Below, piece after piece: positions 3,239-19,517 of a DNA stretch of 64,000 nt. The stretch covers positions 32,001-96,000 of IMG/VR virus record IMGVR_UViG_3300028840_006907. One strand, 5' to 3'. The stretch's first letter is position 1. Each line of letters opens with the position of its first letter. A program made the translations under genes and the position numbers. The stretch is from a virus. The notes beneath the pieces were generated by a model that worked only from the letters and a program-made list of their open reading frames with translations, made no database searches and was not told the DNA's origin.

Positions 3239-3740
3239 TATATATACCCAATTACCTTTTTTATCCAGTAATATAACATTTTAATACTATCAAATACCAA
3301 CGTCCTATATGGTGCGTCCGTATTAATCTCTATTAAATCAGTCGTCCTATATCTTTAAACTATGGTCTATATAGTAATAAACACGATCTATAAATCAAAT
3401 AACAATTTTAAGGTAATCCTCTTACTCATCAATATCCATATCTTTATAATAAAAAACCCACACATAGCACCTATAAAAATGTGGAACCCTTTAAGGCATT
3501 TCTTAAGTAACTATGTATGGGCACTGAAAGGGATTTATACAAATCCCATTATTATCTTAATATATTAACTTACTATATGTCTATACCTATAAACATATCC
3601 CCCTATATATTACTAATTAGTAATATGAATGTAATTATCCCTATCCCCTATATCTAATAACCTATAAACTATCCATTAAGTATATCTGTATCCTATCCAT
3701 ATAATAACTCTGTAAGAGAAAATTAATATGTATCAGTATG

Positions 3741-3888
3741 CCCATTACCTTGAATAGAATAATGAGTAAGTCAGTACCAGGAACTATACCATCATGAACT
3801 ATGAACTCGGAACTATGTCAGGGAAAACTTGAGTACTTACCCATTACCTTGAATAGAATAATGGGTAAGTCAATACCAGGAACTATGT
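3741..3888. repeat. direct repeat of about 48 bp (two copies, 99 bp apart) containing CCCATTA..TAATGGG hairpin and GAACTAT iterons
   Basis: cccattaccttgaatagaataatg(a/g)gtaagtca(g/a)taccaggaactat seen at 3741 and 3840. Confidence 0.7.
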
Positions 3889-4260
3889 CGGGAATTTCCA
3901 ACGAGTATTTTGAAAAAATTTATTCTCCCTGCAAAACCCGGAACCGATTTCCTAGTTCCTACAATCATATATTAATAATCTTTTGTTATCTGTATAAGTA
4001 AATTTACACAGGGTAATTGACTGATCAAAGTAAGTTAATGTCTTCCCAAACCGAGTCTTTGACTTGGGGAAATTGGTTGTTGACTGTAGAGAAGAATAAT
4101 TTCACTTGCTCATTTGGGTATTTGACTTGGGGAAACTGGTTCCCGACTATCAAAAGTGGGGTTAAAAACGAGGGGGGTTACCCCTAAATTTGATATTTCC
4201 AGACTGGGAACTCAGACAGGGGCGATTCCAGACTGTTTCTGGCCAGACTGGGGGAAAGAC

Positions 4261-4512
4261 CTAAGACGGTCTTAGTCCACTCATCCAAGACCATTGCCAT
4301 TTATCTGATCCGTAGCTCCAGACCTGGAATGACTTGGATAGAATTTTATATGTTACTGCCAGACAGAAAATGATCTTTGAGTCTCCACGTCCCAGGATTT
4401 CCTGGACACCGTGTAATCCACGGAACTCTAGGCTATCGGCTGATTTAATTTCGTTCTGAACTTCTATGGGAAGTTCATTCATGTTTATTTGATCTATACT
4501 TGTGATATGCAT
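4261..4512 (-). CDS. hypothetical protein
   Basis: ORF track; co-oriented. Confidence 0.35.
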   Translation of the reverse strand: MHITSIDQINMNELPIEVQNEIKSADSLEFRGLHGVQEILGRGDSKIIFCLAVTYKILSKSFQVWSYGSDKWQWSWMSGLRPS

Positions 4513-4703
4513 TAGTCTCTCAATGCCTCACAGGTAAGGGTAGCGGGAACTACTTCAAACTGAGTTCCAGGTTCAGTACCTTGTGTGAGTTCTACTGTAC
4601 GTATGCTGGCTATATTAAAGTCAGTATAGAACTCTGTGTTATCATCCCATGCGAATTTTTTATCTTTATTTATTATGATCCATCCTTGTAATTTCATAAT
4701 CAC
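4512..4703 (-). CDS. hypothetical protein
   Basis: ORF track; co-oriented. Confidence 0.35.
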   Translation of the reverse strand: MIMKLQGWIIINKDKKFAWDDNTEFYTDFNIASIRTVELTQGTEPGTQFEVVPATLTCEALRD

Positions 4704-4929
4704 CTCTCATTGTACGTTTAAATAGGTTTTCAGGCCATATCCAGACTGAAGAGGTATTCAGCTACCTCTCAGTTCCAGACAGGCTTAAAACAGGTTTATT
4801 CTTCTTCATCTTCGTGGTGTATGATTTCACCAGAAGTATATCCTTCTTTAATAAGTTCTGCTATGTGTTCTCTATCAAGATCGTTGAGTTCATCAACTCC
4901 AGAGAAGGTTAAATTCCACCATCCAGTCA

Positions 4930-5190
4930 TTAGTTTAACTCCTTGATACGTTTGTTAACGGTTATTACTGCTTGTTTATATGAACAGTTTGATTTATTCA
5001 TTTCCTGAGCATACCAGATAAGTCTGATAAAAGATACACAGGCGACTGCTCTGGCATGTTCACGTTCTTTCTTGGTTAATTCACCGGGATTGAAATGAAC
5101 TCCGGCAATAGTCGGGGTTGATAAGCTTCCAGGTGCACCAAATTGCTCAATCCCATACAATTGGTTATTGATTCTTTTGATTTCTGGCAT
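4930..5190 (-). CDS. hypothetical protein
   Basis: ORF track; co-oriented. Confidence 0.4.
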   Translation of the reverse strand: MPEIKRINNQLYGIEQFGAPGSLSTPTIAGVHFNPGELTKKEREHARAVACVSFIRLIWYAQEMNKSNCSYKQAVITVNKRIKELN

Positions 5191-5314
5191 AATTCTCTCC
5201 TTGATTGGGGGACACTGATTTAAGTTTTACCAGACAAGTCGATTCTGACTATTTTAGACTGAAATCCAGGCTGAATTTCCAGACTGATTTGGGGAACGGG
5301 ATTTCCAGACTGAA

Positions 5315-5482
5315 CTAGTCCGAATCTTCTAGGTTTGCAGATACTTCTCCATCGATTTCTTCAACATCGAAAGGATATTCAACAGAGATTTCGTCCTCAA
5401 GAGTTTCAATAGTACAGTTATCGGGTAAAGGATCTTGTACTTTAATTCTTCTATGAATAGTAATATTATAATAACGAGCCAT
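5315..5482 (-). CDS. hypothetical acidic protein (start moved to ATG 5482 with GGAGG SD)
   Basis: ATG at 5480-5482 preceded by GGAGG; track ORF 5315..5512 overlaps neighbour. Confidence 0.35.
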   Translation of the reverse strand: MARYYNITIHRRIKVQDPLPDNCTIETLEDEISVEYPFDVEEIDGEVSANLEDSD

Positions 5483-5496
5483 TGCTACCTCCAGGT

Positions 5497-5691
5497 TTAG
5501 GTTTGTTTCCAACCAAAGTTATATTTGCTACTCCAATTTTTATAAAGCAGTTTAATATTTAAGTGAGTATTTCGTTTGATAAATGTTTTTGCCTGTTTCA
5601 ATGCAGAGTTAAATGGTCGGTCTACAAAGAAAACTTTGGTTAATTTATTCTTGGAATCAGTATACTCAATTTTGTATTTCTGTTTATTCAT
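5497..5691 (-). CDS. hypothetical protein
   Basis: ORF track. Confidence 0.3.
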   Translation of the reverse strand: MNKQKYKIEYTDSKNKLTKVFFVDRPFNSALKQAKTFIKRNTHLNIKLLYKNWSSKYNFGWKQT

Positions 5692-6011
5692 TTTCTGATA
5701 TTATGTTGTTCTTTTTGATGAGTCACCCAGCTATCATAACCCAGACGGGTCTCCTCATTAGAGACAGCGAGTCTCCATTCTTTCATAGGAAAGTCGGGAT
5801 CTTCAGTTTCGAGTTTAGGATTTTGTTTGATGTAATCTGCTATGGATAATTCTTTTTCCAGTACACCTTCACACCCATCATTGGTAAGATTGACTTCGAC
5901 TATTTTATAACCATCTTCGTTTAATTGTTTATGTTTTATCATGATCTCTTTTAAGGATGAAGATGTGAAAGTAACTCTTTTAATGATTAAATCTTGGTTT
6001 TGGATCTTCAT
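5688..6011 (-). CDS. hypothetical protein
   Basis: ORF track. Confidence 0.4.
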   Translation of the reverse strand: MKIQNQDLIIKRVTFTSSSLKEIMIKHKQLNEDGYKIVEVNLTNDGCEGVLEKELSIADYIKQNPKLETEDPDFPMKEWRLAVSNEETRLGYDSWVTHQKEQHNIRK

Positions 6012-6017
6012 AAATTT

Positions 6018-6239
6018 TTACTCCTGGTTATTCTGTACGAGGAATGGGTGAAAACATCCATCTATGTATTGAAGTTTATACTCATCAGTTCCTTCTCTGA
6101 ATACAGTAGGTAAAGTTTCACCTTTATTATTCACATAAGCATTCCCTGTATAGTAATGATGCTTCTTATCAAATGTGAGACCGTATTTCTTACCTATGGC
6201 GGTCAGAGTCCTACGGGCTTTAACAATTTTATTATTCAT
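6018..6239 (-). CDS. hypothetical protein
   Basis: ORF track. Confidence 0.4.
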   Translation of the reverse strand: MNNKIVKARRTLTAIGKKYGLTFDKKHHYYTGNAYVNNKGETLPTVFREGTDEYKLQYIDGCFHPFLVQNNQE

Positions 6240-6525
6240 TTTCCTTTTTCTCCTTTAAGCTCTTTAATAATAATTCAGCTCTTACACTTTCTTTTAGGAT
6301 CTCTCCATAGTGTTCATGGCCTTCCGGGAATATGAAGTATTGGATAGCTTCTTTCTTGATTGGGCAATCGGCTTCGCCATCTTTTGTGGCTGAATAGAAG
6401 TGGGGATATTGACTATATCCGTTATCCCATTGCAGGGCATAGTATCGGTTAGTCTTTTTTGATTTATATATGTTCTTAAGGAATCCGGTATGACTATATA
6501 CAAATCTTAATTCTTGATAATCCAT
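6232..6525 (-). CDS. hypothetical protein; preceded by conserved upstream element
   Basis: ORF track; start codon directly follows repeated element at 6536-6557. Confidence 0.4.
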   Translation of the reverse strand: MDYQELRFVYSHTGFLKNIYKSKKTNRYYALQWDNGYSQYPHFYSATKDGEADCPIKKEAIQYFIFPEGHEHYGEILKESVRAELLLKSLKEKKENE

Positions 6526-6535
6526 ATTGGTTAAT

Positions 6536-6557
6536 CCTTTTTAAGAGATGTCAGATT
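6536..6557 (-). promoter_or_regulatory. conserved upstream element copy 1 (minus-strand reading AATCTGACATCTCTTAAAAAGG)
   Basis: Identical 22-mer at 6536, 6845 and 7252, each ending a few nt before a minus-strand start codon. Confidence 0.5.
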
Positions 6558-6579
6558 ATAACTTTTAGTTTCTTTTGAT

Positions 6580-6837
6580 TTATATGTTCTTAAGGATATC
6601 AATTAAGTCAGTTAATTCACATTCACAATAAATTGAATAATGTAGACCTTCTGCATCCAAAAAAGTTAATTTGGAATTAATTATTACTAGTTCCTCATAA
6701 TCAAATACATTTACTTTGATAGCGTTACTATCGATATGTTTTGATTTGGTCTTACTTTTATTGATCTCAGTTTTTAATGCTTCTTTAATTTCTTTTTCTA
6801 AATTATTGTATCGATTAAGTAAGTTTTGATATTTCAT
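6580..6837 (-). CDS. hypothetical protein; preceded by conserved upstream element
   Basis: ORF track. Confidence 0.4.
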   Translation of the reverse strand: MKYQNLLNRYNNLEKEIKEALKTEINKSKTKSKHIDSNAIKVNVFDYEELVIINSKLTFLDAEGLHYSIYCECELTDLIDILKNI

Positions 6838-6844
6838 AATATTT

Positions 6845-6866
6845 CCTTTTTAAGAGATGTCAGATT
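6845..6866 (-). promoter_or_regulatory. conserved upstream element copy 2
   Basis: Same 22-mer as 6536..6557. Confidence 0.5.
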
Positions 6867-6871
6867 GTCAT

Positions 6872-7243
6872 TTAATACTGGTTAGTTGTGATAGAGAAAG
6901 AATTATAACAACTACCAAAGACATTTTCGAATCCAGAATGACTAACTAGGTCACTGATTTTAACAGGGAGAGGTAACTTGTTAAATTCATTCTCTGTTAA
7001 TCCCAGGAAACTAAGTAGGTCATTTTTAGAGACCCAATCATATTCTTCCCAAAAATCTATATCAGCATTTACAGTGGCCCAATCAAATACACAATCGTTT
7101 GCTTTTTCTGCAACATTAACTTTATAGTAGAATCGATATTCATTTTCTTTCTTTATAAACTTCCATGCCAGACCGTATTCATAGAGAGATGTACCAAGAT
7201 CTGTATCTGTTCCTTCATATCCTTTGAGTTCTGATAAGTACAT
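6872..7243 (-). CDS. hypothetical protein; preceded by conserved upstream element
   Basis: ORF track. Confidence 0.4.
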   Translation of the reverse strand: MYLSELKGYEGTDTDLGTSLYEYGLAWKFIKKENEYRFYYKVNVAEKANDCVFDWATVNADIDFWEEYDWVSKNDLLSFLGLTENEFNKLPLPVKISDLVSHSGFENVFGSCYNSFSITTNQY

Positions 7244-7246
7244 AGT

Positions 7247-7498
7247 TTAATCCTTTTTAAGAGATGTCAGATTACAACTTTTAGTTTGTTTAAATTTAAT
7301 GATGAATTGATCAGGGTTATCGAGTCTTACTAGGACAGTACTGGATTCATATTCATATATGATAGCTCCAGACTGTCGTAGGTCGTTCAGTATTTCTGTC
7401 TCTGGGATATTAGTATCTTTAAAGTGATAGATACTATCATTCATACCGGTAGCTCTGGGGAATTTATTATTAGGGTTTTTTGTATATTTTACTGACAT
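7247..7498 (-). CDS. hypothetical protein
   Basis: ORF track. Confidence 0.4.
   Translation of the reverse strand: MSVKYTKNPNNKFPRATGMNDSIYHFKDTNIPETEILNDLRQSGAIIYEYESSTVLVRLDNPDQFIIKFKQTKSCNLTSLKKD
7252..7273 (-). promoter_or_regulatory. conserved upstream element copy 3
   Basis: Same 22-mer as 6536..6557. Confidence 0.5.
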
Positions 7499-7718
7499 TT
7501 TTTGTTAATCCTTTCTATTGGTTGTTATTTCATGTATACATAGAATTATGGCGGTAATAAAGCATATTCCCATAATTGGACCGATTGTCCATGACCATGA
7601 GAATGTTCCTATAGAACCTGCCATAATAGCCAGGATCATAATTATGCCTAGTGCGGTAGATATTTTTTCTTTCATGATGGGTATATCCTTTTTTATGAGT
7701 TACAAGATCTACTACAGT

Positions 7719-8375
7719 TTATTCCTCTTCTTTTTGTTTGAGTGAACAGAATTCACTTGCAGAAATAAGTTCTGTTACTGCATTGTATATTTCTAGGTCG
7801 TCATCACTTGGAACAAGTTCCTTTTCATACTCCAGAATAAATTCTAGGATACTTCCCATTTTATGTTCAATGTTTTCTATGTCTGGTAATCTTTTGATAT
7901 CTTCTAACCAGACATCTACATCATTACTATAGGATGAGATGAAACCGTCACAGCTAGTATAGATAGCTTTTAAGAAAGTAGAATAAGATTTAAGGACTTC
8001 TTTATTCTCAAAGAATTTTTTGATAGCTTCAAGATCAATTTCTACTTCAATATTTATCGAGTCGTTTTCATAGTTATACTGTTTAGGGGATGATACATTT
8101 TGTAGATTTATTTTAACAACATATGGTTTTAATTTCTTTTCTACAAATTCAACAAAGATTTTAGCGAGGGCTTTTTCATATCCTTCGTTATCGATTTCAA
8201 GATCATCATATTCGATTTCTTCATCCAGACTGTATCCTTTTTCTTTTCTTTCTTCATGATGCCAATCGTCATTTTCATTATAACCTTCTAATACTTTATC
8301 TGTATCCAGATCATACAGGGTATTATAGAACCCTGGAAAGAGAGGACACCAAGTTTCGATTTTAGTTGTTCTCAT
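7719..8375 (-). CDS. hypothetical acidic protein
   Basis: ORF track; 218 aa. Confidence 0.45.
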   Translation of the reverse strand: MRTTKIETWCPLFPGFYNTLYDLDTDKVLEGYNENDDWHHEERKEKGYSLDEEIEYDDLEIDNEGYEKALAKIFVEFVEKKLKPYVVKINLQNVSSPKQYNYENDSINIEVEIDLEAIKKFFENKEVLKSYSTFLKAIYTSCDGFISSYSNDVDVWLEDIKRLPDIENIEHKMGSILEFILEYEKELVPSDDDLEIYNAVTELISASEFCSLKQKEEE

Positions 8376-8677
8376 GATAATCCTCCAGACACTATAATTT
8401 CTCTTCTCTTTTCGAGATGGTGATATCTATGTCTTTTTATAATGGTTAGATCATAACCAATGCTTTCTAGTTCTTCTTTAAGATCTTTATATTCTTCGGG
8501 AGTAGCTAATCTACTTTCCTGAATGATCCCGTAAGGGTTACAGGCTCCGTGTTGGCCTATATGTTCATAAGACGAACAGGTCATAGGATTAGTATTTCCG
8601 GGTTCTTCGGGGAAGATAGCTATTACTTCGTTTGATATTTTCCAGAAACGGAAGATCACTTTAGTTTTGTTATTCAT
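8372..8677 (-). CDS. hypothetical protein
   Basis: ORF track. Confidence 0.4.
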   Translation of the reverse strand: MNNKTKVIFRFWKISNEVIAIFPEEPGNTNPMTCSSYEHIGQHGACNPYGIIQESRLATPEEYKDLKEELESIGYDLTIIKRHRYHHLEKRREIIVSGGLS

Positions 8678-8679
8678 AG

Positions 8680-8967
8680 TTAAGTCTCCTGTAGAGCGAT
8701 TTGAAATCTATTGGTATACTTCTGTATCTCTTTAGCGTATCTCTCATCACTCATAGTTTGGTTGTCGATTATTCTAATTTCTAGTACTTCTGAATCTTTA
8801 GTAAAAGTATTTATCATGGTAGTCTTGGTAATAGGGTAATATCCTTTCCAGTGTTTCACTATAAAGACTAAAGCCTCTTCTTTTATTACCCACTGTCTAC
8901 CGTACAATAAATCATGCTTTTTCATATCTTGGAGTATGTTTTCGAGTTTTATCCATGTTAATTTCAT
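8680..8967 (-). CDS. hypothetical protein
   Basis: ORF track. Confidence 0.4.
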   Translation of the reverse strand: MKLTWIKLENILQDMKKHDLLYGRQWVIKEEALVFIVKHWKGYYPITKTTMINTFTKDSEVLEIRIIDNQTMSDERYAKEIQKYTNRFQIALQET

Positions 8968-8968
8968 A

Positions 8969-9331
8969 TTATTTCACACACTTGTAACAGTGATTCATAA
9001 TAGTTGTGATGTTTGTATTAAAGAGTTTAACAAAGAAGTCTTTCTTATCATTATTAATAAGATATTCATAGACCGTATTAACTACATTGGCACTAAAGAG
9101 ATCCAGTAATACACCATCTACTAAAAGGCATTGTTTCTTTTTCAGTACCCATTTAATAGCGAGGATCTTTTTGATTTTACTACCATTAGTTTTACAGGTA
9201 TAATCTTTTACTGTATCGAGTATTTCTAATTTATCCTCACATGTACCATCATACCACCAATCCTTTATGATTTCAATTTCGTATTCTTTTAATTCGTTTT
9301 CGTTCATTGGATTTACTAATGTTGATGCCAT
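8969..9331 (-). CDS. hypothetical protein
   Basis: ORF track. Confidence 0.4.
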   Translation of the reverse strand: MASTLVNPMNENELKEYEIEIIKDWWYDGTCEDKLEILDTVKDYTCKTNGSKIKKILAIKWVLKKKQCLLVDGVLLDLFSANVVNTVYEYLINNDKKDFFVKLFNTNITTIMNHCYKCVK

Positions 9332-9427
9332 TATATGTTCTCCTTGTTATAATTACCTGGAACAGGTAGAGTTAAAAATATATATTACGTATTAGAAGTG
9401 CTTGAGTCGCGCTTTAAGGCATGGAGT

Positions 9428-9456
9428 AAGCCCGACCTTTACGGACAGTCGGGCTT
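9428..9456 (-). terminator. intergenic 9-bp-stem hairpin (AAGCCCGAC / GTCGGGCTT), terminator- or processing-site-like
   Basis: GC-rich inverted repeat directly downstream of minus-strand gene 9466..10086; no clear U-tract. Confidence 0.3.
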
Positions 9457-9465
9457 CTCTATGCA

Positions 9466-10086
9466 TTACCAGTCCCAGCACCGGGCACATTCCAAACATC
9501 CCGATACTTCATGCCAGACTGCAAGACAGTCCAGAGGATGTTTAGGAACGTTTTTAACTACTGAACCATGACAGTGGTAGGGAAATACTATAATGATTCG
9601 GGGATCATCTGGAACAGTATCTACGTCTCTCCTAGGGCCAAAACACATCTTACCTGGAAATTTACTCCAGACTTTCTTTGGAGTTGTAGCATCGATACTT
9701 AATAATAATCTGAGATTAGGTAATTGATCATTAATGACCTTTGCTATTTCAGGTTTCCTTGTCATGCCATAGAACATAGTTTTAGGGCATTCATTAGCGA
9801 GGTTAATAATATTATTCACGTGATCAGGTAATAGATCACCACATCCATTTAAACGTACTGCATGACAGTTTTTACATTCGACTATGACTTTGAGTAGATC
9901 ATTACCGGTGAAGTAATCAGAAACATAGTTCTGTTTTTTCACGGTATTGGGTAAAGCCATATGTCCGGATCGGGCATAGCAAAGTTTCTGACATAACTTA
10001 CTAGGTCTACAATGCCCTTTCATGGGAAAGTTTATTGAGACACCAGTTTTCTTGTTTTCAGAAATGATAGTTAATGGAGTATACAT
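9466..10086 (-). CDS. hypothetical Cys-rich protein
   Basis: ORF track; 206 aa; multiple Cys/His. Confidence 0.45.
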   Translation of the reverse strand: MYTPLTIISENKKTGVSINFPMKGHCRPSKLCQKLCYARSGHMALPNTVKKQNYVSDYFTGNDLLKVIVECKNCHAVRLNGCGDLLPDHVNNIINLANECPKTMFYGMTRKPEIAKVINDQLPNLRLLLSIDATTPKKVWSKFPGKMCFGPRRDVDTVPDDPRIIIVFPYHCHGSVVKNVPKHPLDCLAVWHEVSGCLECARCWDW

Positions 10087-10482
10087 ACTTATACCTCCTG
10101 TTAATATGTAACATTGTTCTTAATTTTATTCATATATTAAAGACTCTCTCGTATACTATCTTGAGAGAGGATTTTTCGAATTGATATTTATTTACTGAGC
10201 GAGTAATTGTTGTTGAATTTAATGAAATTTTAAGTACCCCAATGTGCGTGTAAGTAAATTTGAATTTTTCTGTGATAACAGACTGAAAACACTTAGGGAT
10301 GAAAACTGTAAGTACCGTCCCCCAAATAGGGCTAGGGAGGTTATTTTGTATCTGAGAAATCAGATTTGGAAAGTAAAAATAATAATATTTTTCTACTCTT
10401 TTTTGATCTTTTATAATAAATTATAAACGAGTCTCCAGGACATTCAGACCGTCTTGTGAGAAAATGATGAGTTAAATAGTTT

Positions 10483-10560
10483 GCGCCCCCTGGAAGCTGA
10501 AAACCGAGGGGGCGCATTAACACAAATAAAGGAACGCCCTCAAAAGAGGGTGTCACCCTT
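10483..10560 (-). terminator. GC-rich hairpins downstream of 10628..11926 (GCGCCCCCT..AGGGGGCGC; CCCTC-loop-GAGGG plus T-rich run)
   Basis: Inverted repeats seen in an otherwise AT-rich spacer. Confidence 0.3.
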
Positions 10561-10627
10561 TATCTACTTAATATATCCTGAATCAACCAAAAAGTCAACT
10601 TTAATATTTCCAACACTTTATAATAAA

Positions 10628-11926
10628 TTACACGTTATAGTTCTCATTAACTGTTTCAGTTTTCTCAAATTCCTTTTTTAATAATGAGATACCATACATG
10701 CCTACGTCTGGTTGAAAGATTAATAGACGTTCATATTTAGTTCTGCCTTTTGAGAATTTCACTTTATCTCTGACAGAATCGGGGATTTCAGAAATACCAA
10801 AGAGGAGCTTATTAAGAAATTCATATTCTGCATAGAATTGATTCTTTTCATTTTCTTTATAAGATCTTTCTTTCATAAGATTAAGGATAGATCTTTCATT
10901 ACCATCAAATTTCTTTAAGAAGTTAGCATTAACAGTAAACTTCTTAGGTGATTTATATTCTTTCCATTCAACACCTTTCATCCAGTGCGGGAAAGGTTTA
11001 TCAGGATTGGCATATCTAAAGTTGGCGTATTCTTCACCACGAATATAGAACTGTAATTGAGATTTGATCTTATATGTTAGCCATTTCTTTCTTTTAACGA
11101 CTTCTACTAGAGTATCTTGGTTAAGGGGCATCATAGCATATTCCCCGACCAAGGGAGGAATATCTACTTCATAGGTGACTGATTTAATTTTAATTTTTTT
11201 CTCGTTACCAAGTTTAGTAGTTTCAGGCCATTCCTTTTTCTCTTCGGGAGGTAAGACAATACCTTTATCGTTCATAAGTTTAATAAGTCCACCAAGATAT
11301 TGTATTTCATCTTCCAGACGGGCTAGGGCTATTTTAATTACAAAGTAATTAGAGGAGAAGATATTAAATCTTCTTTGAGGAGCTATAAAATTATTAAAGG
11401 TTATCTTTCCATTGGAAGCTAGTTTAATAAAGAACTCGTTCTCTTTTGCAGTGGGCATGAACTCTATACGTTCCCAACCTTCATACCATTCACCGTCTAC
11501 ACCTACAACATTAAAGACTCGGAAGTCTCCGGTATCATCGAACTTCATGATATTAACATCAACTATTCTCATACCAAAAGACCAAAGATCTTTAGCACAA
11601 GAAAGGCCAACGACTTTACCGTGTCTATTTTCTTTTGAGACAAGGTGCTGTCCATCTTTTAAGACTGTGCCTCTCATGGCATGGTACTTAGATATATTGA
11701 TCACGGCATTACGTGACATAAAGTTATACATTGCAGACTGAAGATCGAGAGTAGTTCCGGTATAATTACCTTCAGCATCACAGACTGTTGTAGGATTTTT
11801 ACTGAATATATCGGGAATAAGACTTTTAACTAAGGTCTCATAATCTACATCCTGAGACCTGTTAATAAGAGTTTTTACGAATGGTTCTTTTAATATGTTT
11901 TTTAGTTTTTCAGGTACTTTCTTCAT
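10628..11926 (-). CDS. hypothetical protein (432 aa)
   Basis: ORF track; a KDG tripeptide is present but a ligase call is not supported. Confidence 0.5.
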   Translation of the reverse strand: MKKVPEKLKNILKEPFVKTLINRSQDVDYETLVKSLIPDIFSKNPTTVCDAEGNYTGTTLDLQSAMYNFMSRNAVINISKYHAMRGTVLKDGQHLVSKENRHGKVVGLSCAKDLWSFGMRIVDVNIMKFDDTGDFRVFNVVGVDGEWYEGWERIEFMPTAKENEFFIKLASNGKITFNNFIAPQRRFNIFSSNYFVIKIALARLEDEIQYLGGLIKLMNDKGIVLPPEEKKEWPETTKLGNEKKIKIKSVTYEVDIPPLVGEYAMMPLNQDTLVEVVKRKKWLTYKIKSQLQFYIRGEEYANFRYANPDKPFPHWMKGVEWKEYKSPKKFTVNANFLKKFDGNERSILNLMKERSYKENEKNQFYAEYEFLNKLLFGISEIPDSVRDKVKFSKGRTKYERLLIFQPDVGMYGISLLKKEFEKTETVNENYNV

Positions 11927-12023
11927 AATGAATATCCTTTTAAAGATTACGGTTCGGTATCATATATTATACGAGATTTAGGAAAGAAAGTGATAAGAAA
12001 AAAATTTAATTATTTATTTAAGT

Positions 12024-12542
12024 CTAACCTTTCGAGGTATTTAAAGATTTAATATAATCCTTTCGTTTTGTATGATATTCTGTATAAACAAAAGGAATCT
12101 CAATAAATTGTTTCCCATACCAAGACTGGCCTTTAACATTACTTAATTGAACCTTAATATTCTGAGGAAACTCATAGTTATCCATCAACCACTTCCAGAC
12201 TTCTTCAGAGAAAAGGATATGTAGGTCAGAACAATAATTATTCATGTTCTCCTCTGGAATATTAAACATTTCTTGTAATAATTTTTTCCAGGTCATATCT
12301 AATTGATCCAAGATATCTTTCTTATCCTTTTTAGTAAGGATATAATCACACCCGTCCCCAAGGGGGACAAAGCCAGACTTAAGAGCGTGTATGGCTTTGC
12401 CTCCGGCATCGGTGGTTCCGTATAATTCAGAGGAGCATTGAAAATTAATTGATCCATCTTTATAAACTGTTATGGGAGTCTTTCTTTTAATAGTCATAAT
12501 AATCTCCAGGTTAATTGGTGAATAACCAGACTGTCGGTTCAT
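12024..12542 (-). CDS. hypothetical protein
   Basis: ORF track. Confidence 0.4.
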   Translation of the reverse strand: MNRQSGYSPINLEIIMTIKRKTPITVYKDGSINFQCSSELYGTTDAGGKAIHALKSGFVPLGDGCDYILTKKDKKDILDQLDMTWKKLLQEMFNIPEENMNNYCSDLHILFSEEVWKWLMDNYEFPQNIKVQLSNVKGQSWYGKQFIEIPFVYTEYHTKRKDYIKSLNTSKG

Positions 12543-12720
12543 AAGGTTTATTGTGGAGGTCTAACTTACCACGTAGATTCTTATGAAGGACTTTTACTGT
12601 TCGATAAGTTTTCTTATTAAGTTTAGCTTCTTTCAAAGCCTCTTCATAAGATTTACCAATTACTTTTCTTAATATCTTACCATTTACTTCTATTGATTCG
12701 GGTAGATTACATTGAATCAT
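12511..12720 (-). CDS. hypothetical protein
   Basis: ORF track. Confidence 0.35.
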   Translation of the reverse strand: MIQCNLPESIEVNGKILRKVIGKSYEEALKEAKLNKKTYRTVKVLHKNLRGKLDLHNKPYEPTVWLFTN

Positions 12721-12983
12721 AATCCCTCCTGTTCTTTATCTATCCATTCAGTTTCTATCTCAGTAAGAGCATTAATTAATTCTCTCATATGAGATATAGG
12801 AACTTCGATGAAACATTTTCCAGGTTGACCTTTACTTGTTATAGGTCTAATTTCTATGAAAGGTCTTTCACCTTCGAATGGACTTTCAAATTGCCCCAGA
12901 CTGAGACCGGAACATTTAAAAGAACCGTTACGTCCTAAGAACTTAGAATGATATCCGTCAAATTTAAAAGTTTTCTTTATCAT
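12717..12983 (-). CDS. hypothetical protein
   Basis: ORF track. Confidence 0.4.
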   Translation of the reverse strand: MIKKTFKFDGYHSKFLGRNGSFKCSGLSLGQFESPFEGERPFIEIRPITSKGQPGKCFIEVPISHMRELINALTEIETEWIDKEQEGL

Positions 12984-12997
12984 GATTTAATCTCCTG

Positions 12998-13567
12998 TTA
13001 GAGTTTTAATTCTTGTTGAATACCTTCAGTTTTTTCAATATGGTCTATATCGTGATCAATAATGCTTCGAGTATCGGGTAGTAACCCACTCTTTTCATGA
13101 TCATATCCAAAGAAGCCCCAGCAAGAGTGGATCTCTTCACCATCTTTATTTTTAACAATGTATCCGTAGACAGCATCTGTTAATAGACAGTCATAGGTCT
13201 CAACTTCAGACCGAAGAATATCTTTAATCTTTTCGATACGTTCTTCATTAAGTTCTGTCCAATTAAATTCAGACAGGGCTTTGCTTTTCTCTACGTAGAT
13301 CCAACCGACTTGACCACTGTCCCAAGGACAGTCAAAGCCAGTCGTATTCATGGTTAAACCACTGTGATCATATAGATACAGGGGTAGATAGATAACGTCC
13401 TCAAAGGGTATCGAATCGACGTCATATGGTGCGCCTTTATCATTGAAGTCGTAGCGTCTATGTTTAGATACCATTGATCCAAAATTATCCCATTCTGTTC
13501 TAGGGTTCAAGGGATCTTCATCAACATGAATTTCAATTGTGTAGTTTTTATATTTTATAGTTTCCAT
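12998..13567 (-). CDS. hypothetical protein
   Basis: ORF track. Confidence 0.45.
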   Translation of the reverse strand: METIKYKNYTIEIHVDEDPLNPRTEWDNFGSMVSKHRRYDFNDKGAPYDVDSIPFEDVIYLPLYLYDHSGLTMNTTGFDCPWDSGQVGWIYVEKSKALSEFNWTELNEERIEKIKDILRSEVETYDCLLTDAVYGYIVKNKDGEEIHSCWGFFGYDHEKSGLLPDTRSIIDHDIDHIEKTEGIQQELKL

Positions 13568-13722
13568 AATACCTCAATACCTCTCTTTTATTAAATATAA
13601 TTAACTGGAATGATTTGACTTAGATATATTTTATATATAATGGGGTGGTCATCCCCGGATTTACCGGGGCTGTCTCTGGGAGAATCGATACAAATGGCGG
13701 TGATTTAGACCACTCCATTTTA

Positions 13723-13980
13723 TTAGACATAGATATATTCTATAGCGGAATGTACAAGATAATAGCATCTTTGACCGTCATAAGTACTTTTATAGTACGC
13801 TACATGCCAGTCTTTTTTAATACTAGGGATGCACGTTCCTGTATATCCAAACTGTTCATTGACTTCTTGGAGGGAGACGTGTTTAAAGAAAGTATTGGCT
13901 GTTATCTTTCTTCCGTTATCAGTCATATCGTTAATAAGTTCTGCTGTGCTTGCAACACAGCATGTTAAATATTCATACAT
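13723..13980 (-). CDS. hypothetical protein
   Basis: ORF track; preferred over overlapping plus-strand ORF by strand-block consistency. Confidence 0.3.
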   Translation of the reverse strand: MYEYLTCCVASTAELINDMTDNGRKITANTFFKHVSLQEVNEQFGYTGTCIPSIKKDWHVAYYKSTYDGQRCYYLVHSAIEYIYV

Positions 13981-14198
13981 GATTTACCTCCAGACTGGGT
14001 ATAACAATTATCTTCACAAGTTCCACCACGTCCAAGTCTATCACAAGCAATGCCATAATCTACTGGGCATATTTCAAGGTTAGATTTAATCTTTCGGTAA
14101 TCGTGGTGTTCACAACTGCGACAAATTGAACCATTTTGAGTGGTATCATTTCCAAGTTTATTACATATACTACCATTAACCGGACATTCTCTAGGCAT
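13965..14198 (-). CDS. hypothetical Cys-rich small protein
   Basis: ORF track; many Cys. Confidence 0.35.
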   Translation of the reverse strand: MPRECPVNGSICNKLGNDTTQNGSICRSCEHHDYRKIKSNLEICPVDYGIACDRLGRGGTCEDNCYTQSGGKSCMNI

Positions 14199-14745
14199 TG
14201 TTACTTCTCCTTATCGTTATGATATTAGTTTTCTTCTTTTTCTTGACTCCAGACTTCTTTTGTCTCTGAAATTCATAGTAACTTTCCATATCACGAAGTT
14301 CAATCTCACCTTTCTTCACATACTTATGAAGCAGTGAAATAAATCCGGTAACCTGGAAGATTGCAGTCTTACTAGATAACTTATCTTTAATTTCCAGACA
14401 GGCATCTTCGTGTATCTCTCCATTAAGAGCGATAAACTCCTGTCTCATTAAATCTTTCTCCCAATCTTCCAGACTGCGTTTCTTTTCAATCTTGTGCCCG
14501 TTCTTAGATCCTTTAGGGATACGGGGGTCGAGTTCTTTATCTGTTTTCTCAGATACAGATTTAGTTGGAAGTTCCAAAGTGGTTTGTACTGGTGTTTTAA
14601 GTTCTTTCTGTTCAGGTTTAGAAGTATTCATCTTCTCTTGAACCATTGCAGGAATGATAACTTTTTTAACGAAGGTTAAAACGATAGTTCTATTTTCATC
14701 ATTGATTAAATCAAGTGTAGAATTTAAAAGATCATTAGTATTCAT
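14191..14745 (-). CDS. hypothetical protein
   Basis: ORF track. Confidence 0.4.
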   Translation of the reverse strand: MNTNDLLNSTLDLINDENRTIVLTFVKKVIIPAMVQEKMNTSKPEQKELKTPVQTTLELPTKSVSEKTDKELDPRIPKGSKNGHKIEKKRSLEDWEKDLMRQEFIALNGEIHEDACLEIKDKLSSKTAIFQVTGFISLLHKYVKKGEIELRDMESYYEFQRQKKSGVKKKKKTNIITIRRSNNA

Positions 14746-14877
14746 TGGATACCTCCATATTTATTATTTATGATATGTTATTTATTATCGATACTTTTTC
14801 GGGACTCTCAACTCTTATGGTATCGATAAGTCCCCCCAGTAGAGAGTTCCTATCTCTCTACCGGCCAGAGTTATATA

Positions 14878-16008
14878 TTAACCAACAAGATCTAAGATCT
14901 TATCAAGGGTTTCATTCTTTTCTTTCATTTGAACTGTAGGATTAGGATTATGTGAAGTCTCTTCAGGAGATTCAATTAATTCCAATACAGTTTCGAGAGC
15001 ATTGGATTTTAATTGAGCACCACTACCTACCCACGCACTATCGGCACGGGCTTGTTCTTGAGTAGTATATCCAGACGTAGATGTTACTCTACTAGGTCTT
15101 TTATGATCCACGTAATTAGTAACAGCATTCACCAAAGCCATACCCGTTCCAGCTTGTTCCGGGATAGCATTATCATCATTATCATTAAATAGTTTAGCTA
15201 TCTCAAGGGCTTTATCAGATTTCTTATCTGATTGTTCCCATTTCTCACCAAAGATACGAGTCATAGTCTGTGCAAAAAGTTCTTTGGTAACTTTATGAGT
15301 AATAATCTTTTCAAACTTTTCTTTAAGAGAATTTATATCCTGTTTTAATCCGGTTTGAATCTCAGTGGTTATTTTATTAAGTTTCTCTTTAGCACCTTTG
15401 GTATGTCTTACTTTAATCATTGCATCCTTAGTGCCTTTAGATAAGGCAAAATTCAAAGTGTTCTGACATACTACCCGTACATCGGTGAGCATAATTGTAT
15501 TACTCATAGTTCCATCATGAGCACTCATAAACATGATAAATGTTTCGTGTTTATCATTTCCGATGGAAGCGTTAAAGGGGACACGGGCCAAAGCCCAGAC
15601 ACGTTCTCCACGTCCTAAAACTCCGGCAGCTTCATAATGTGCACCATCAATCTGTTCTAAGACATTATCAATCCATCCACCGATTTCAATATTTTGCGTA
15701 GGTTCATAGGTATTACCTACGATACCAAGGGCGCTTTCCTTACCAGTTAAATCGGAACGAAAGATACCAAATTGATTCGGGAAAACATATCCTTTAGGTA
15801 CAGTGCTTCCAGGTTTCCATAAAGGATTCTTAAAGAATAACGGCCTTTTTTCGACCGTCCAATCTAATTGAGCCAGTTCATAAGCTTCTTTCCAGGTCAT
15901 TGCATGATTGACCATTTGTCCTAGTTCATGCCACGGTAAACCATGTTCATCTATGGCATATGCAGCCGATACTAAACCGTTTTTTGCTGTAAATAAATTA
16001 TGAGCCAT
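14878..16008 (-). CDS. phage/plasmid-like protein, possibly DUF932 family
   Basis: 376 aa; overall resemblance from memory to DUF932/TIGR03299 proteins; unverified. Confidence 0.45.
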   Translation of the reverse strand: MAHNLFTAKNGLVSAAYAIDEHGLPWHELGQMVNHAMTWKEAYELAQLDWTVEKRPLFFKNPLWKPGSTVPKGYVFPNQFGIFRSDLTGKESALGIVGNTYEPTQNIEIGGWIDNVLEQIDGAHYEAAGVLGRGERVWALARVPFNASIGNDKHETFIMFMSAHDGTMSNTIMLTDVRVVCQNTLNFALSKGTKDAMIKVRHTKGAKEKLNKITTEIQTGLKQDINSLKEKFEKIITHKVTKELFAQTMTRIFGEKWEQSDKKSDKALEIAKLFNDNDDNAIPEQAGTGMALVNAVTNYVDHKRPSRVTSTSGYTTQEQARADSAWVGSGAQLKSNALETVLELIESPEETSHNPNPTVQMKEKNETLDKILDLVG

Positions 16009-16274
16009 TGAAAGACTCCTTTCATGATAAGGGTTCCACTAACTTATTAAAGTCAGCTATTATAGTTATTTGGGTTTTTTATTTACTATGAGGGATTGAC
16101 CAGACTATAAAGAGCATTGCCTTTATTATCAGTCTGGCCTGTTTTCTTCCAGAGACCGAAAGAACTATTTATATATTCAGGTTCAGTCTCTACACCATGT
16201 AATCTGATATATTCAGACCATGAATATTCAGACCATGAAGTAGTGCAGACAGGGGGAGAAGGGAAAGCAATCAT

Positions 16275-16763: not shown

Positions 16764-16770
16764 TCCTTCG

Positions 16771-17079
16771 TTATATTATATCTTCGATTGATTCATTATC
16801 AATGTGCCATTGTTCGCATTCATCAATTTCTTTTTCAATGGCTTCAGTAATTTCCTCATCCAGGTCGAGAACATTATTTAAATAATCTCTCCAGTTCTGG
16901 ATAGTATCATTATGAGTCACTCCCCACATACCGTTTTCGTTGTGTTCTTCCATAGTATCTACATCGGTATCGTATTGATTAGGATTAATGCAATGATCTT
17001 GTATACTGTGTACAGTTTCACTTGCATAAATCTGATATTCTTCAGAGTTAATTAAATCTTTCAATGTCTTTATAGTCAT
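16771..17079 (-). CDS. hypothetical acidic protein
   Basis: ORF track. Confidence 0.4.
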   Translation of the reverse strand: MTIKTLKDLINSEEYQIYASETVHSIQDHCINPNQYDTDVDTMEEHNENGMWGVTHNDTIQNWRDYLNNVLDLDEEITEAIEKEIDECEQWHIDNESIEDII

Positions 17080-18650: not shown

Positions 18651-18908
18651 GGTTCCTCCATGTTAAGGTTTATGTTAGTTATTTAATTATTATCTTTGTT
18701 ACGTATTAGTCTACGTAGAGTATTAATAGTCCGGTGACTTGTTCTTTGGTCATTCCGCTTAAGGCTTTGATAAATTCTATCGTTGTCCTTTCACCTTGTG
18801 TTTTGAGAAGAGTATTTATACATGCTTTCATTTCGGGTATCATCTCTATTGTGTTCATTGGTGTTATAGTTACAGTCTCCATGTTTTTTCTCCTGTCTGG
18901 TTTAAGTT

Positions 18909-19517
18909 TTAGTTATAGCGAGTTATTCCGTCACTGGATTCAAAATCCATTGCGAGTATGGTATATAATTCCGTTTCCTGTGTATTAATTGTGTCTGGAT
19001 TGACTTGTCTGGAATATCCATCACTGCTTTCAAAATCCATTGCGAGTGAAGCAAATTCATTTGATATGGTTACAAGCGAGTTAACTGGTTGAATTTCAAC
19101 GATTTCAGTCTGGGTTTGGACTTCTTTAATACATTCATCCATTAAACTATTTAGAGTATCTAAGTCGGTAGTTTTTACGAAGGTTTCCCAGTCCTCTTTG
19201 GACATATTAAAATATTCTCGTACGACTTCGAGTTTATCTATATCTGTTATAGTTTTTACTTTGTTCCCGTTTTGCCAAATACTTTTAGCTTTATTAGTAT
19301 ATATAATCTCGCCTGTAAAGTTATGGTTGAAATTTAACCAGCGAGTCTCGTTATTTACTGACGGGTCAATGACTTCAGCGAGTTTATTACCAAAACGGTT
19401 TATACGATAACGGCCAGTACATTGAACGTTTATCCATTCACGAATTGTTTTTCTTGCGGTTTGGTTTGTGCCATTAATAACAGCACCAATTAATTTATCG
19501 TTCATTAGTATAGACAT
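18909..19517 (-). CDS. hypothetical protein with duplicated C-terminal ILAMDFESSDG segment
   Basis: ORF track; 22-bp direct repeat at about 18936 and 19024 inside the CDS. Confidence 0.45.
   Translation of the reverse strand: MSILMNDKLIGAVINGTNQTARKTIREWINVQCTGRYRINRFGNKLAEVIDPSVNNETRWLNFNHNFTGEIIYTNKAKSIWQNGNKVKTITDIDKLEVVREYFNMSKEDWETFVKTTDLDTLNSLMDECIKEVQTQTEIVEIQPVNSLVTISNEFASLAMDFESSDGYSRQVNPDTINTQETELYTILAMDFESSDGITRYN

What the first reader, a model, noticed from the sequence alone, without database searches (positions are those of the whole stretch)
4198..16140. Strand-biased 8-mer CCAGACTG enriched in the left arm
By eye I find the exact 8-mer on the plus strand at about 4198, 4228, 4243, 4741, 5281, 5306, 9517, 12526, 12895, 13991 and 14468, including inside coding regions, against one or two reverse-orientation copies and none I noticed in the right 40 kb. 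This is more than I would expect by chance for an 8-mer in this interval (not computed), and the one-strand orientation recalls polar motifs such as Chi or KOPS. My scan was not exhaustive.
Basis: seen in the sequence. Interest (0 to 1): 0.5.

Follow-up and report, generated by a model that had tools for sequence, protein, structure and literature searches.

The report
Oriented 8-mer marking an early-gene module
A short DNA word, CAGTCTGG in the direction of the genes, is packed about 50 times more densely than chance into one 12-kb block of small genes of a giant phage-like element and its relatives. It almost always points the same way, which most resembles the Chi signals that tell DNA-end-degrading enzymes to stop cutting and start recombining.

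Summary
CCAGACTG occurs 15 times in the window against 0.92 expected: 13 on the + strand at 4199-14476, 2 reversed at 16130 and 19106, and none in the other 45 kb. The genes here lie on the minus strand, so in gene sense the motif is (C)AGTCTGG(A). Its core GTCTGG occurs 30 times in sense against 7 in antisense.

Twenty-two core copies lie inside genes, in all three reading frames. Synonymous-codon shuffles expect 3.5 copies where 23 are counted. Two relatives with 63-67% protein identity show the same excess, mostly at non-orthologous positions.

Three intergenic arrays are conserved in all seven relatives examined. They sit at the downstream end of the module, next to a conserved repeat-rich non-coding locus. 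A small cluster in the opposite orientation lies near the other flanking non-coding locus.

The best reading, at about 0.35, is a Chi-like polar DNA motif facing DNA ends at the flanking loci, as described for the terminally clustered Chi sites of phages LLS, MD8 and P1.

The rivals are operator or iteron arrays of a clade-specific DNA-binding protein, a minimal promoter, an RNA motif, and nick sites. KOPS is not supported.

The host, the protein that reads the motif and the genome ends remain unknown.

The parts
4199..16137 (-). The motif domain. This conserved early-gene module runs from a 62-aa gene and a DUF932 gene, through a 432-aa gene and a GP88-like gene, to an 86-aa gene. It carries 30 sense-oriented GTCTGG cores, 13 of them the exact CAGTCTGG.
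   Evidence: The sense copies start at the 62-aa/DUF932 genes and end just before the hairpin at 4171-4185. The same limits are seen in L121 and L123.
5230..5312 (-). Array A. It has five direct copies: CAGTCTGG, CAGTCTGG, CAGCCTGG, CAGTCTAA and TTGTCTGG. They lie 45-120 nt upstream of the 86-aa gene (4930-5190). The first three are spaced 26 and 13 nt apart, with an embedded TTCCCCAAATCA element.
   Evidence: The array sits at the same place, with the same spacing, in 7 relatives.
4741..4782 (-). Array B. CTGTCTGG and CAGTCTGG flank a small hairpin, 43 and 77 nt upstream of gene 4512-4703.
   Evidence: It is conserved in L121 and L123.
4199..4250 (-). Array C. It has three exact copies plus a degenerate CTGTCTGA, directly after the last gene of the module (stop codon at 4261).
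   Evidence: It is conserved in L121, L123 and L179, with the last copy next to the hairpin.
4171..4185 (-). Conserved GGGG-loop-CCCC hairpin, followed in the window by a run of T. It is the likely end of the transcription unit and marks the boundary of the motif domain.
   Evidence: The stem is conserved in L121, L123 and L179, but the T run is not conserved in all of them.
3239..4198 (.). Non-coding locus of about 950 nt flanking the domain. It contains the iteron-like TTCCCCAAGTCA (2 copies), a 47-nt direct repeat with an internal palindrome, and AT-rich repeats. It is a candidate for a DNA end, an origin or a packaging site.
   Evidence: The first ~350 nt are conserved in L121, L123 and L179.
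7368..14476 (-). Seven exact copies inside genes, at 7368, 8225, 9514, 12526, 12896, 13990 and 14469, plus 13 further GTCTGG cores in coding sequence.
   Evidence: the coding copies use reading frames 0, 1 and 2 about equally; selection acts on synonymous codon choice; only about 6 of 20 are at orthologous positions in the relatives.
16100..16137 (.). Inverted pair at the upstream edge of the domain. On the gene-sense strand it reads CCAGACTG, 22 nt, TAGTCTGG.
18895..19113 (+). Cluster of four GTCTGG cores in the opposite orientation, including the exact CAGTCTGG at 19106-19113. It lies in and next to the first gene of the arm (18909-19517), close to the repeat-rich locus at 19.5-21 kb.
   Evidence: The copies share the extended flanks of the sense copies. 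There are 3 copies in the gene against 0.6 expected, p about 0.006. L123 has a reversed exact copy in the homologous gene.

Best explanation
The motif 5'-(C)AGTCTGG(A)-3' is a polar DNA signal that is selected for density and orientation, not for exact position. It is read on one strand by an enzyme that tracks along DNA.

The known model that fits best is Chi. A helicase-nuclease of the RecBCD or AddAB type loads at a double-strand end in the non-coding locus at 3.2-4.2 kb and moves rightwards into the early-gene module. Such an end could be a packaging cut, a terminal-repeat boundary or the tail of a rolling circle. Moving rightwards, the enzyme would meet every copy from its 3' side, starting with arrays C, B and A. 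At a copy it would switch from degradation to recombination. This would protect the first-expressed genes and promote recombination-dependent circularisation or concatemer formation. The few reversed copies at 18.9-19.1 kb would do the same for an end at the other flanking locus.

Shown here:
- the enrichment
- the orientation
- selection at the level of the DNA sequence
- turnover of individual sites
- clustering at the end of the module
- conservation within the clade

Inferred, not shown:
- that a DNA end exists at the flanking locus
- that the motif is the host's Chi
For: (1) Over-representation is about 50-fold, and this is the top octamer of the arm.

(2) Orientation is 13:2 for the octamer and 29:2 for the core within the domain.

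(3) Copies lie in coding DNA in all three reading frames, and synonymous shuffles expect 3.5 where 23 are found. Controls in the other arms are at expectation.

(4) The same excess is seen independently in L121 (11 against 2.9) and L123 (13 against 2.4). Only about 6 of 20 coding sites are orthologous, so density is conserved and sites turn over.

(5) Density is highest, at 11 copies in 1.6 kb, right next to the non-coding locus, where the domain stops abruptly.

(6) The reversed copies at 18.9-19.1 kb lie inside a gene on the same strand as the rest of the arm. Orientation therefore does not simply follow transcription, which favours a signal read on DNA.

(7) There is a published precedent. 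Phages LLS (23 Chi, 20 in the active orientation, half in the terminal 22%) and MD8 (32 against 0) have Chi as their most frequent octamer, with sites that come and go. P1 has 50 Chi and needs RecBCD to recombine its terminal repeats (PMC12315714). By the rule stated there, Chi written 5'-3' is active for an enzyme arriving from its 3' side. The copies here are therefore active for entry from the left locus.
Against: - No DNA end, terminal repeat or origin has been demonstrated at 3.2-4.2 kb. The relatives' contigs end 0.5-1.1 kb past array C, but at different positions, which may only reflect assembly breaks in repeats.
- The host is unknown, so it could not be tested whether the motif is skewed and over-represented in a host chromosome.
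- The other 45 kb of the window has no copy at all, which is more extreme than in LLS.
- Arrays A-C keep their spacing (26 + 13 nt) and neighbouring conserved bases (CCCCAAA, TTCCCCAARTCA) in 7 relatives. That indicates site-specific binding, which Chi does not need.
- Density does not decay smoothly. It is a step that starts at the 62-aa/DUF932 genes.
- The reversed cluster is small (4 copies, p about 0.006-0.01) and is absent from L121.
Confidence: 0.35

Rival explanations
1. The motif copies are binding sites (operators or iterons) of a clade-specific, sequence-specific DNA-binding protein. This protein would control the last genes of the module, or an origin, partition or packaging site in the adjoining non-coding locus. 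The scattered copies inside genes would be secondary sites, or loading sites for a protein that acts directionally.
For: - Arrays A, B and C are direct repeats with conserved spacing, in intergenic DNA, in front of genes or next to a conserved hairpin and iteron-like repeats.
- The motif copies stay invariant while the DNA between them varies.
- A second repeated element, TTCCCCAARTCA, is shared by array A and the non-coding locus.
- The core CAGnCTG is a near-palindrome, as expected for a dimeric binder.
- Inverted pairs exist at 16100-16137 and at L123 2742-2760.
- More distant relatives (50% identity or less) lack the motif, as expected if the site co-evolves with a phage-encoded protein.
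Against: - An ordinary regulator does not explain a 6-fold, strand-specific excess at synonymous sites inside 22 gene positions, replicated with site turnover in two relatives.
- Other intergenic regions of the module (97-254 nt) have no copy.
- No DNA-binding fold or family was found among the module's proteins. The 86-aa protein next to array A has no fold match.
Confidence: 0.25
2. The motif is a minimal promoter, or a promoter element, for a phage-directed transcription machinery. The comparison is the 8-bp T4 late promoter TATAAATA (from my own knowledge). It would fire in the gene-sense direction for one temporal class of genes.
For: - The motif is restricted to one co-oriented gene block and is in sense orientation.
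- Several copies lie 15-130 nt upstream of start codons.
- Copies inside genes tend towards the 3' part of the upstream gene (mean relative position 0.64).
- Site turnover is normal for promoters.
Against: - There is no fixed distance to start codons. Eleven of 30 copies lie within 130 nt upstream of a start, about what random placement gives.
- No second conserved element or AT-rich melting region lies at a fixed offset.
- Copies 13-16 nt apart would be overlapping promoters.
- Array C is followed within 14 nt by a hairpin and then 950 nt without genes.
- Reversed copies lie inside a gene.
- Most intergenic regions of the block lack it.
Confidence: 0.1
3. The motif acts in the RNA as CAGUCUGGA. 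It would be a binding or cleavage motif on the module's transcripts for an RNA-binding regulator or an endoribonuclease. Array C would then be a 3'-UTR decoy or sponge placed before the terminator.
For: - The motif is sense-specific, and its domain ends exactly at a hairpin plus U run.
- The arrays lie in 5' and 3' untranslated regions.
- The motif contains GGA and twice overlaps a Shine-Dalgarno sequence (8385, 13990).
Against: - The reversed cluster at 18.9-19.1 kb, with the same extended flanks, would be antisense in the mRNA.
- There is no conserved RNA structure or covariation around the copies. The predicted pairing is only between motif copies.
- No Rfam family matches anywhere in the window.
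- The first 3.4 kb of the same gene arm has no sense copy.
Confidence: 0.1
4. The copies are strand-specific nick sites of a phage nickase, as in T5 and some Pseudomonas phages (from my own knowledge).
For: The sequence is short and specific and lies almost entirely on one strand.
Against: Tandem copies 13-29 nt apart, confinement to 12 kb, and density selection with turnover are not features of known nick-site sets. Nothing in the sequence can show nicks.
Confidence: 0.04
5. The excess is chance, base composition, codon usage or a repeated protein motif.
For: A few copies coincide with conserved residues, for example Val-Trp in the GP88-like protein.
Against: No dinucleotide shuffle (0 of 100) and no synonymous shuffle (0 of 2000) reaches the observed counts. 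All three reading frames are used. The other arms of the same window are at expectation.
Confidence: 0.01

Closest known systems
Chi sites clustered near one genome end in phages that rely on the host's RecBCD: E. coli phage LLS, Pseudomonas phage MD8 and P1 (PMC12315714)
   Same: - A short specific word that is the most frequent octamer.
- Density of about 1 per kb.
- Strong one-orientation bias.
- Concentration towards one end.
- Presence in coding DNA that codon usage does not explain.
- Gain and loss of sites over evolutionary time.
   Different: - The sequence (CAGTCTGG) matches no Chi that I know of.
- The host and the reading enzyme are unknown.
- The motif is confined to one 12-kb module, with none in the next 45 kb.
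- Three intergenic arrays have conserved spacing and conserved flanking bases.
- The element is a giant (470-kb contig) AT-rich phage-like genome, not a lambdoid phage.
KOPS / SRS, the orienting polar sequences of FtsK and SpoIIIE (from my own knowledge)
   Same: An oriented 8-mer that a DNA translocase could read. Density rises towards a specific non-coding locus.
   Different: KOPS are spread over the whole replicon and converge on dif from both sides. Here the motif occupies one side only. The 3.2 kb on the other side of the locus has no copy in either orientation.
Iteron or operator arrays of plasmid and phage origins and partition sites, such as P1 incC/incA, parC of type II partition loci, and lambda cosB R sites (from my own knowledge)
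   Same: Several groups of short direct repeats lie in intergenic DNA, separated by small genes, next to a hairpin and other repeats. They are conserved in position.
   Different: The unit is only 8-9 nt. It is also selected, in one orientation, inside genes across 12 kb.
T4 late promoters, an 8-bp TATAAATA element alone (from my own knowledge)
   Same: A single 8-bp word, co-oriented with one class of genes and often placed inside the preceding gene.
   Different: The motif here is GC-rich, has no fixed distance to genes, occurs in tandem copies 13-16 nt apart, and has an array that faces a gene-free region.

Membership tests
Chi (RecBCD/AddAB hotspot) | A short (5-8 nt) specific sequence, strongly over-represented, among the most frequent oligomers | tested here: met
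   The octamer is 13 against 0.24 expected, and the core 30 against 3.6. It is the top word at k = 6, 7 and 8 in the arm. This holds only regionally, not across the whole window.
Chi (RecBCD/AddAB hotspot) | Strong orientation bias, with the active orientation facing a DNA end or opposing the direction of fork movement | tested here: inconclusive
   The bias is 13:2 for the octamer and 29:2 for the core. The orientation is right for an enzyme entering from the 3.2-4.2 kb locus, by the rule. No DNA end or origin has been shown there.
Chi (RecBCD/AddAB hotspot) | Occurs regardless of coding status and reading frame, is not explained by codon usage, and shows site turnover | tested here: met
Chi (RecBCD/AddAB hotspot) | The same word is over-represented and skewed on the host chromosome | not testable with these tools
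   The host is unknown.
Chi (RecBCD/AddAB hotspot) | Recognised by the helicase-nuclease, which then attenuates degradation and loads RecA | not testable with these tools
   This is a biochemical property.
KOPS / SRS | Replicon-wide distribution, with oppositely oriented copies converging on dif | tested here: not met
   The motif is confined to 4.2-19.1 kb. There is no copy in 0-4 kb or in 19.2-64 kb on either strand. The two orientations diverge rather than converge.
Operator / iteron array | Clusters of repeats in intergenic DNA, conserved in position and spacing | tested here: met
   Arrays A, B and C are conserved in 3-7 relatives.
Operator / iteron array | A cognate sequence-specific DNA-binding protein encoded nearby | tested here: inconclusive
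   No Pfam or PHROG DNA-binding family was found in 30 proteins of the module. The 86-aa neighbour has no fold match. Absence of annotation is not absence of the protein.
Operator / iteron array | Function resides in the arrays, with no strand-specific selection elsewhere | tested here: not met
   There is a strand-specific excess inside genes at synonymous sites, in three genomes.
Phage promoter | A defined distance to transcription and gene starts, with further conserved positions | tested here: not met
   Nothing is conserved beyond C-2, A-1, GTCTGG, A+6 and A+7. Distances to the next start range from 15 to more than 1000 nt. Transcription starts were not measured.
CsrA/Rsm-type RNA sponge or other known RNA family | A match to a described RNA family, or GGA motifs presented in conserved hairpin loops | tested here: not met
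   There is no Rfam match, and the alignment shows no conserved structure beyond pairing between motif copies.

The most novel reading that the evidence does not exclude
The motif is not the host's Chi. It is the address label of a phage-encoded system: a module-specific polar signal read by a protein of this clade of giant phages. That protein could be a directional translocase, a nuclease or a self-marking factor. The signal would define the early-gene arm, possibly a long terminal repeat, as a unit for protection, recombination or processing. The conserved arrays would serve as its loading or stop sites.
Probability: 0.15. Interest if true: 0.8.

Novelty: new variant of a known kind. Interest (0 to 1): 0.55.

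Why it matters
If the motif is a Chi-like signal, it gives the recognition sequence of the recombination nuclease of an uncultured host. It would also show that giant phages guard and recombine their first-expressed genes with terminal Chi clusters, as recently described for small lambdoid phages.

It would also point to where the ends of the genome are. From my own knowledge, Chi sites limit how far end-resection proceeds and hence where CRISPR spacers are taken from. A Chi cluster would therefore also blunt host CRISPR adaptation against the entering DNA.

If a phage protein reads the motif instead, this is a new kind of domain-specific polar signal in a viral genome.

Either way, the motif is a simple marker for this clade and for the limits of its early module.

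Tried and rejected
- **Link to CRISPR.** No spacer-like segment of the 44-47 kb or 54.4 kb repeat regions matches the motif sites.
- **Pattern scans of public collections.** Two copies within 30 nt in viral contigs gave 120 chance hits. The few loci with 5-7 copies are coding 12-nt repeats (protein repeat W-D/A-S-V) or other tandem repeats, unrelated to this element. The array A pattern found nothing in viral contigs, and found 8 scattered, evidently chance hits in bacterial MAGs.
- **The source genome.** Proteins of the window are on record on a 469,617-bp contig, but the contig could not be fetched. Genome-wide counts were therefore impossible.
- **Known phages.** There is no nucleotide match for the region, and no phage protein match for the 1514-aa ORF.
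- **Function of the module's proteins.** Pfam and PHROGs give only DUF932, GP88 and unnamed families. PDB sequence searches were empty. AlphaFold models of the 86-aa protein (pLDDT 75) and the 432-aa protein (pTM 0.83) have no significant fold match.
- **RNA structure.** Array A shows only pairing between motif copies. The window has no Rfam match.
- **Sigma-70-like promoters and terminators.** Counts in the arm are no more than chance.
- **Physical ends from contig ends.** The relatives' contigs stop in the non-coding locus, but at different positions, so this is inconclusive.
- **Mobile module.** The arm is not a mobile module, because the flanking genes are syntenic in L121 and L123.
- **Analogous motifs in distant relatives.** Their top words look like ordinary promoter or ribosome-binding-site elements.
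- **Literature search by sequence.** It returned only primer matches.

Full report
**Observation**

The exact word CCAGACTG occurs 15 times in the 64-kb window. Dinucleotide shuffles expect 0.92, with a maximum of 4 in 100 shuffles.

- Thirteen copies are on the + strand, at 4199, 4228, 4243, 4741, 5279, 5305, 7368, 8225, 9514, 12526, 12896, 13990 and 14469.
- Two are reversed, at 16130 and 19106.
- None lies in 19.2-64 kb.

All genes from 240 to 19517 are on the minus strand. In gene sense the word is therefore CAGTCTGG.

**What the motif is**

A k-mer survey of the arm, in gene sense and with an order-2 Markov expectation, puts this word first at every length:

| Word | Observed | Expected | Antisense count |
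|---|---|---|---|
| GTCTGG | 30 | 3.6 | 7 |
| CAGTCTG | 16 | 0.9 | not stated |
| CAGTCTGG | 13 | 0.24 | not stated |

The other two gene arms of the window have nothing comparable.

Aligning the 30 sense cores shows no conserved position beyond C at -2, A at -1 and A at +6. Pooling 100 sense cores from the window and six relatives gives C66 A58 GTCTGG A62 A51.

CAGnCTG is a near-palindrome. The strand asymmetry lies in the central T and in the flanks. In the pooled set CAGTCTGG is 37 in sense and 1 in antisense, although orthologous copies are counted more than once.

**Where the copies lie**

Twenty-nine of the 30 sense cores lie between 4.2 and 16.1 kb. There is none in 0-4 kb, and about 0-1 per 4 kb elsewhere on either strand.

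Eight cores are intergenic and form three arrays:

- Array A (5230-5312) has five copies, 45-120 nt upstream of an 86-aa gene.
- Array B (4741-4782) has two copies upstream of the next-but-one gene.
- Array C (4199-4250) has three exact copies and one degenerate copy, directly after the last gene.

Array C is followed by a GGGG/CCCC hairpin with a T run (4171-4185). After that come about 950 nt without genes, which carry their own repeats.

Twenty-two cores lie inside genes. They use the three reading frames about equally and show no fixed distance to the next start codon.

**Selection acts on the nucleic acid, not the protein**

I shuffled synonymous codons among the 28 genes of the module, keeping every protein sequence and the overall codon usage.

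| Word, in coding sequence | Observed | Shuffle expectation |
|---|---|---|
| GTCTGG (sense) | 23 | 3.5 +/- 1.6 (0 of 2000 reach 23) |
| CAGTCTGG (sense) | 8 | 0.55 |
| CCAGAC (antisense) | 3 | 1.3 |

The middle and right arms of the window are at expectation: 1 against 1.1, and 2 against 0.7.

**Relatives**

The window has no nucleotide match among deposited phages.

Its proteins are on record on a contig of 469,617 bp that could not be fetched. Distant homologues of the 432-aa protein sit on contigs of 200-416 kb that carry genes typical of huge phages. I therefore treat the element as a probable huge phage. No virion gene lies in the window, so this is not proven.

Homologues of the 432-aa and 86-aa proteins led to syntenic metagenomic contigs with 63-77% protein identity: L121, L122, L123, L179 and L180-L183.

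| Relative | Sense GTCTGG | Antisense | Source |
|---|---|---|---|
| L121 | 21 | 4 | |
| L123 | 21 | 4 | |
| L179 | 12 | 1 | |

Synonymous shuffles repeat the coding excess in L121 (11 against 2.9) and in L123 (13 against 2.4), with 0 of 1000 shuffles reaching the observed count in either.

In a three-way alignment only about 6 of the window's 20 coding sites are GTCTGG at the same position in a relative. Each relative has its own private sites. Inside genes, therefore, density and orientation are conserved but position is not.

The arrays behave differently. They sit at orthologous places. Copies 1 and 2 of array A, together with a CCCCAAA between them, are invariant or nearly so in seven relatives, while the DNA further downstream varies.

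Relatives with 50% identity or less lack the motif, and their top words look like ordinary promoter or ribosome-binding-site elements.

**Limits of the domain and the reversed copies**

In all three long relatives the sense copies begin at the conserved 62-aa/DUF932 genes and end at the hairpin after array C.

The genes upstream of that point (16.3-19.5 kb) are syntenic but much more divergent, at 25-38% identity. They have no sense copy.

They do carry four cores in the opposite orientation, at 18895, 18993, 19007 and 19108. A fifth, at 16132, belongs to an inverted pair.

These reversed copies share the longer consensus, TTCAGTCTGG and GACTTGTCTGGAA. Three of them lie inside gene 18909-19517, where shuffles expect 0.6 (p about 0.006). 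L123 has a reversed exact copy in the homologous gene, and L121 has none.

This cluster is close to the second repeat-rich non-coding locus. That locus holds a 77-bp repeat (4.4 copies) at 19573-19914 and a 14-bp repeat (16 copies) at 20404-20629.

**Interpretation**

A strand-specific excess at synonymous sites, with site turnover, means the word is read on one strand by something directional. Reversed copies inside a gene on the same strand as the rest of the arm argue that the signal is read on DNA rather than on the mRNA.

The closest described behaviour is Chi. A 2025 study reports the following (PMC12315714):

- Phage LLS has 23 Chi sites, 20 in the active orientation, and half of them in the terminal 22% of the genome.
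- Phage MD8 has 32 sites in the active orientation and 0 in the other.
- Chi is the most frequent octamer of these genomes.
- Codon usage does not explain this.
- Sites come and go over time.
- P1 has 50 Chi sites and needs RecBCD to recombine its terminal repeats.

By the rule given there, Chi written 5' to 3' acts on an enzyme that arrives from its 3' side. On that rule the copies here face an enzyme entering from the non-coding locus at 3.2-4.2 kb. The reversed cluster faces one entering from the locus at 19.5-21 kb.

This is the layout expected if the arm is bounded by DNA ends. The arm could, for example, be a long terminal repeat carrying early genes, as in T5 and SPO1. That comparison is from my own knowledge and was not tested.

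I put this reading at about 0.35.

**What does not fit, and the rivals**

No DNA end or origin is shown at either locus. The relatives' contigs stop 0.5-1.1 kb past array C, but at different positions.

The host is unknown, so the key test could not be run: whether the same word is skewed on the host chromosome.

The arrays are under site-specific constraint and share a second element, TTCCCCAARTCA, with the non-coding locus. This points to a sequence-specific DNA-binding protein. An operator or iteron function is therefore the main rival (0.25), and it may coexist with a polar function.

- **Minimal promoter (0.1).** It is disfavoured by the absence of any fixed distance to genes or of a second element, by copies 13-16 nt apart, and by array C facing a hairpin and a gene-free region.
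- **RNA motif (0.1).** It is disfavoured by the reversed cluster, by the lack of conserved structure, and by the absence of any Rfam match.
- **Nick sites (0.04).** These cannot be tested from sequence.
- **KOPS.** This fails, because the motif is local and one-sided.
- **Chance, composition or codon usage.** These are excluded.

**Dead ends**

- No CRISPR spacer matches the motif.
- Pattern scans of public collections gave chance hits or unrelated coding repeats.
- The module's proteins have no informative family, sequence or fold match.

**Verdict**

This is a real, strongly significant, clade-conserved, oriented motif. It marks one early-gene module of a giant phage-like element.

It is most likely a Chi-like polar DNA signal with terminal arrays, but the arrays may also be protein-binding sites. 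The reading protein, the host and the genome ends remain to be found.

Noticed in passing
window 44000-47100: A GC-rich (about 50%) non-coding stretch holds dozens of degenerate type I-E-like CRISPR repeat hairpins (CCCCGC..GCGGGGAA). Spacing is a regular 55-62 nt at 46184-47018 and irregular (49-285 nt) further left. It lies next to a Cascade gene set on the minus strand: Cse1 52046-53989, Cas7 50934-52019, Cas5 50260-50910 and Cas6e 49629-50303. There is also a 743-aa helicase (47128-49359) whose helicase motifs start near residue 45, so no HD nuclease domain is evident. No Cas1 or Cas2 was seen among the ORFs scanned.
   Followed up: partly
window 54388-54525: A second, short array of the same repeat type (CAGCCCCGCGTATGCGGGGAATAG, 2.4 units) lies just upstream of the Cse1 gene.
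   Followed up: no
window 13652-13672: A solitary hairpin of the CRISPR-repeat type (AGCCCCGG-TAAGAT-CCGGGGA in gene sense) sits in the intergenic region 13568-13722 of the motif-bearing module. It could be a Cas6e processing site in that transcript, or simply a terminator.
   Followed up: no
window 19573-20629: The region between the divergent gene arms holds three tandem repeats: 77 bp x 4.4 (19573-19914), 20 bp x 2.5 (20313-20363) and 14 bp x 16 (ACAGGGAACTGAGC, 20404-20629). The 77-bp repeat may be tandem early promoters. The GC-skew sign changes here. A near-copy of the 14-mer (GGGAACTCAGACAGGGG) lies inside array C at 4206-4222.
   Followed up: partly
window 3239-4198: A gene-free locus of about 950 nt has TTCCCCAAGTCA iteron-like repeats (4060, 4123), a 47-nt direct repeat with an internal 12-nt palindrome (3741-3886), AT-rich ATAGG-type repeats, and two TATAGGACG copies (3306, 3348). 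Its first ~350 nt are conserved in L121, L123 and L179.
   Followed up: partly
window 39669-41762: A radical SAM protein is interrupted by an intein with a LAGLIDADG homing-endonuclease domain. A second radical SAM gene lies at 61306-62025.
   Followed up: no
[not shown]
   Followed up: partly
window 34341-38885: A 1514-aa ORF has no Pfam or PHROG hit and no match to any deposited phage.
   Followed up: no
L128 (14.3 kb, 50% identity relative): TGTCCC occurs 10 times in gene sense and 0 times in antisense (expected 1.7). It may be a different polar word in a more distant relative. The significance is marginal after correction for multiple testing.
   Followed up: partly
L124 (64% GC distant relative): The AT-rich word CGGTAATACA occurs 8-13 times, mostly just upstream of gene starts. 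It looks like a phage-specific promoter.
   Followed up: no
L121 3166-4200; L123 1552-2491: The relatives carry large tandem repeats in the variable upstream part of the arm. L121 has a 476-nt unit x 2.2. L123 has 18-, 31-, 29- and 78-nt units. The 29-nt unit of L123 contains GAGTCTGG in the reversed orientation, three times.
   Followed up: partly
window 4-20 kb against its flanks: The motif-bearing arm has almost no GC skew (0 to -0.12). The flanking regions are strongly skewed: -0.44 at 2-4 kb and +0.27 to +0.35 at 20-30 kb. The arm is therefore a distinct compositional domain.
   Followed up: no
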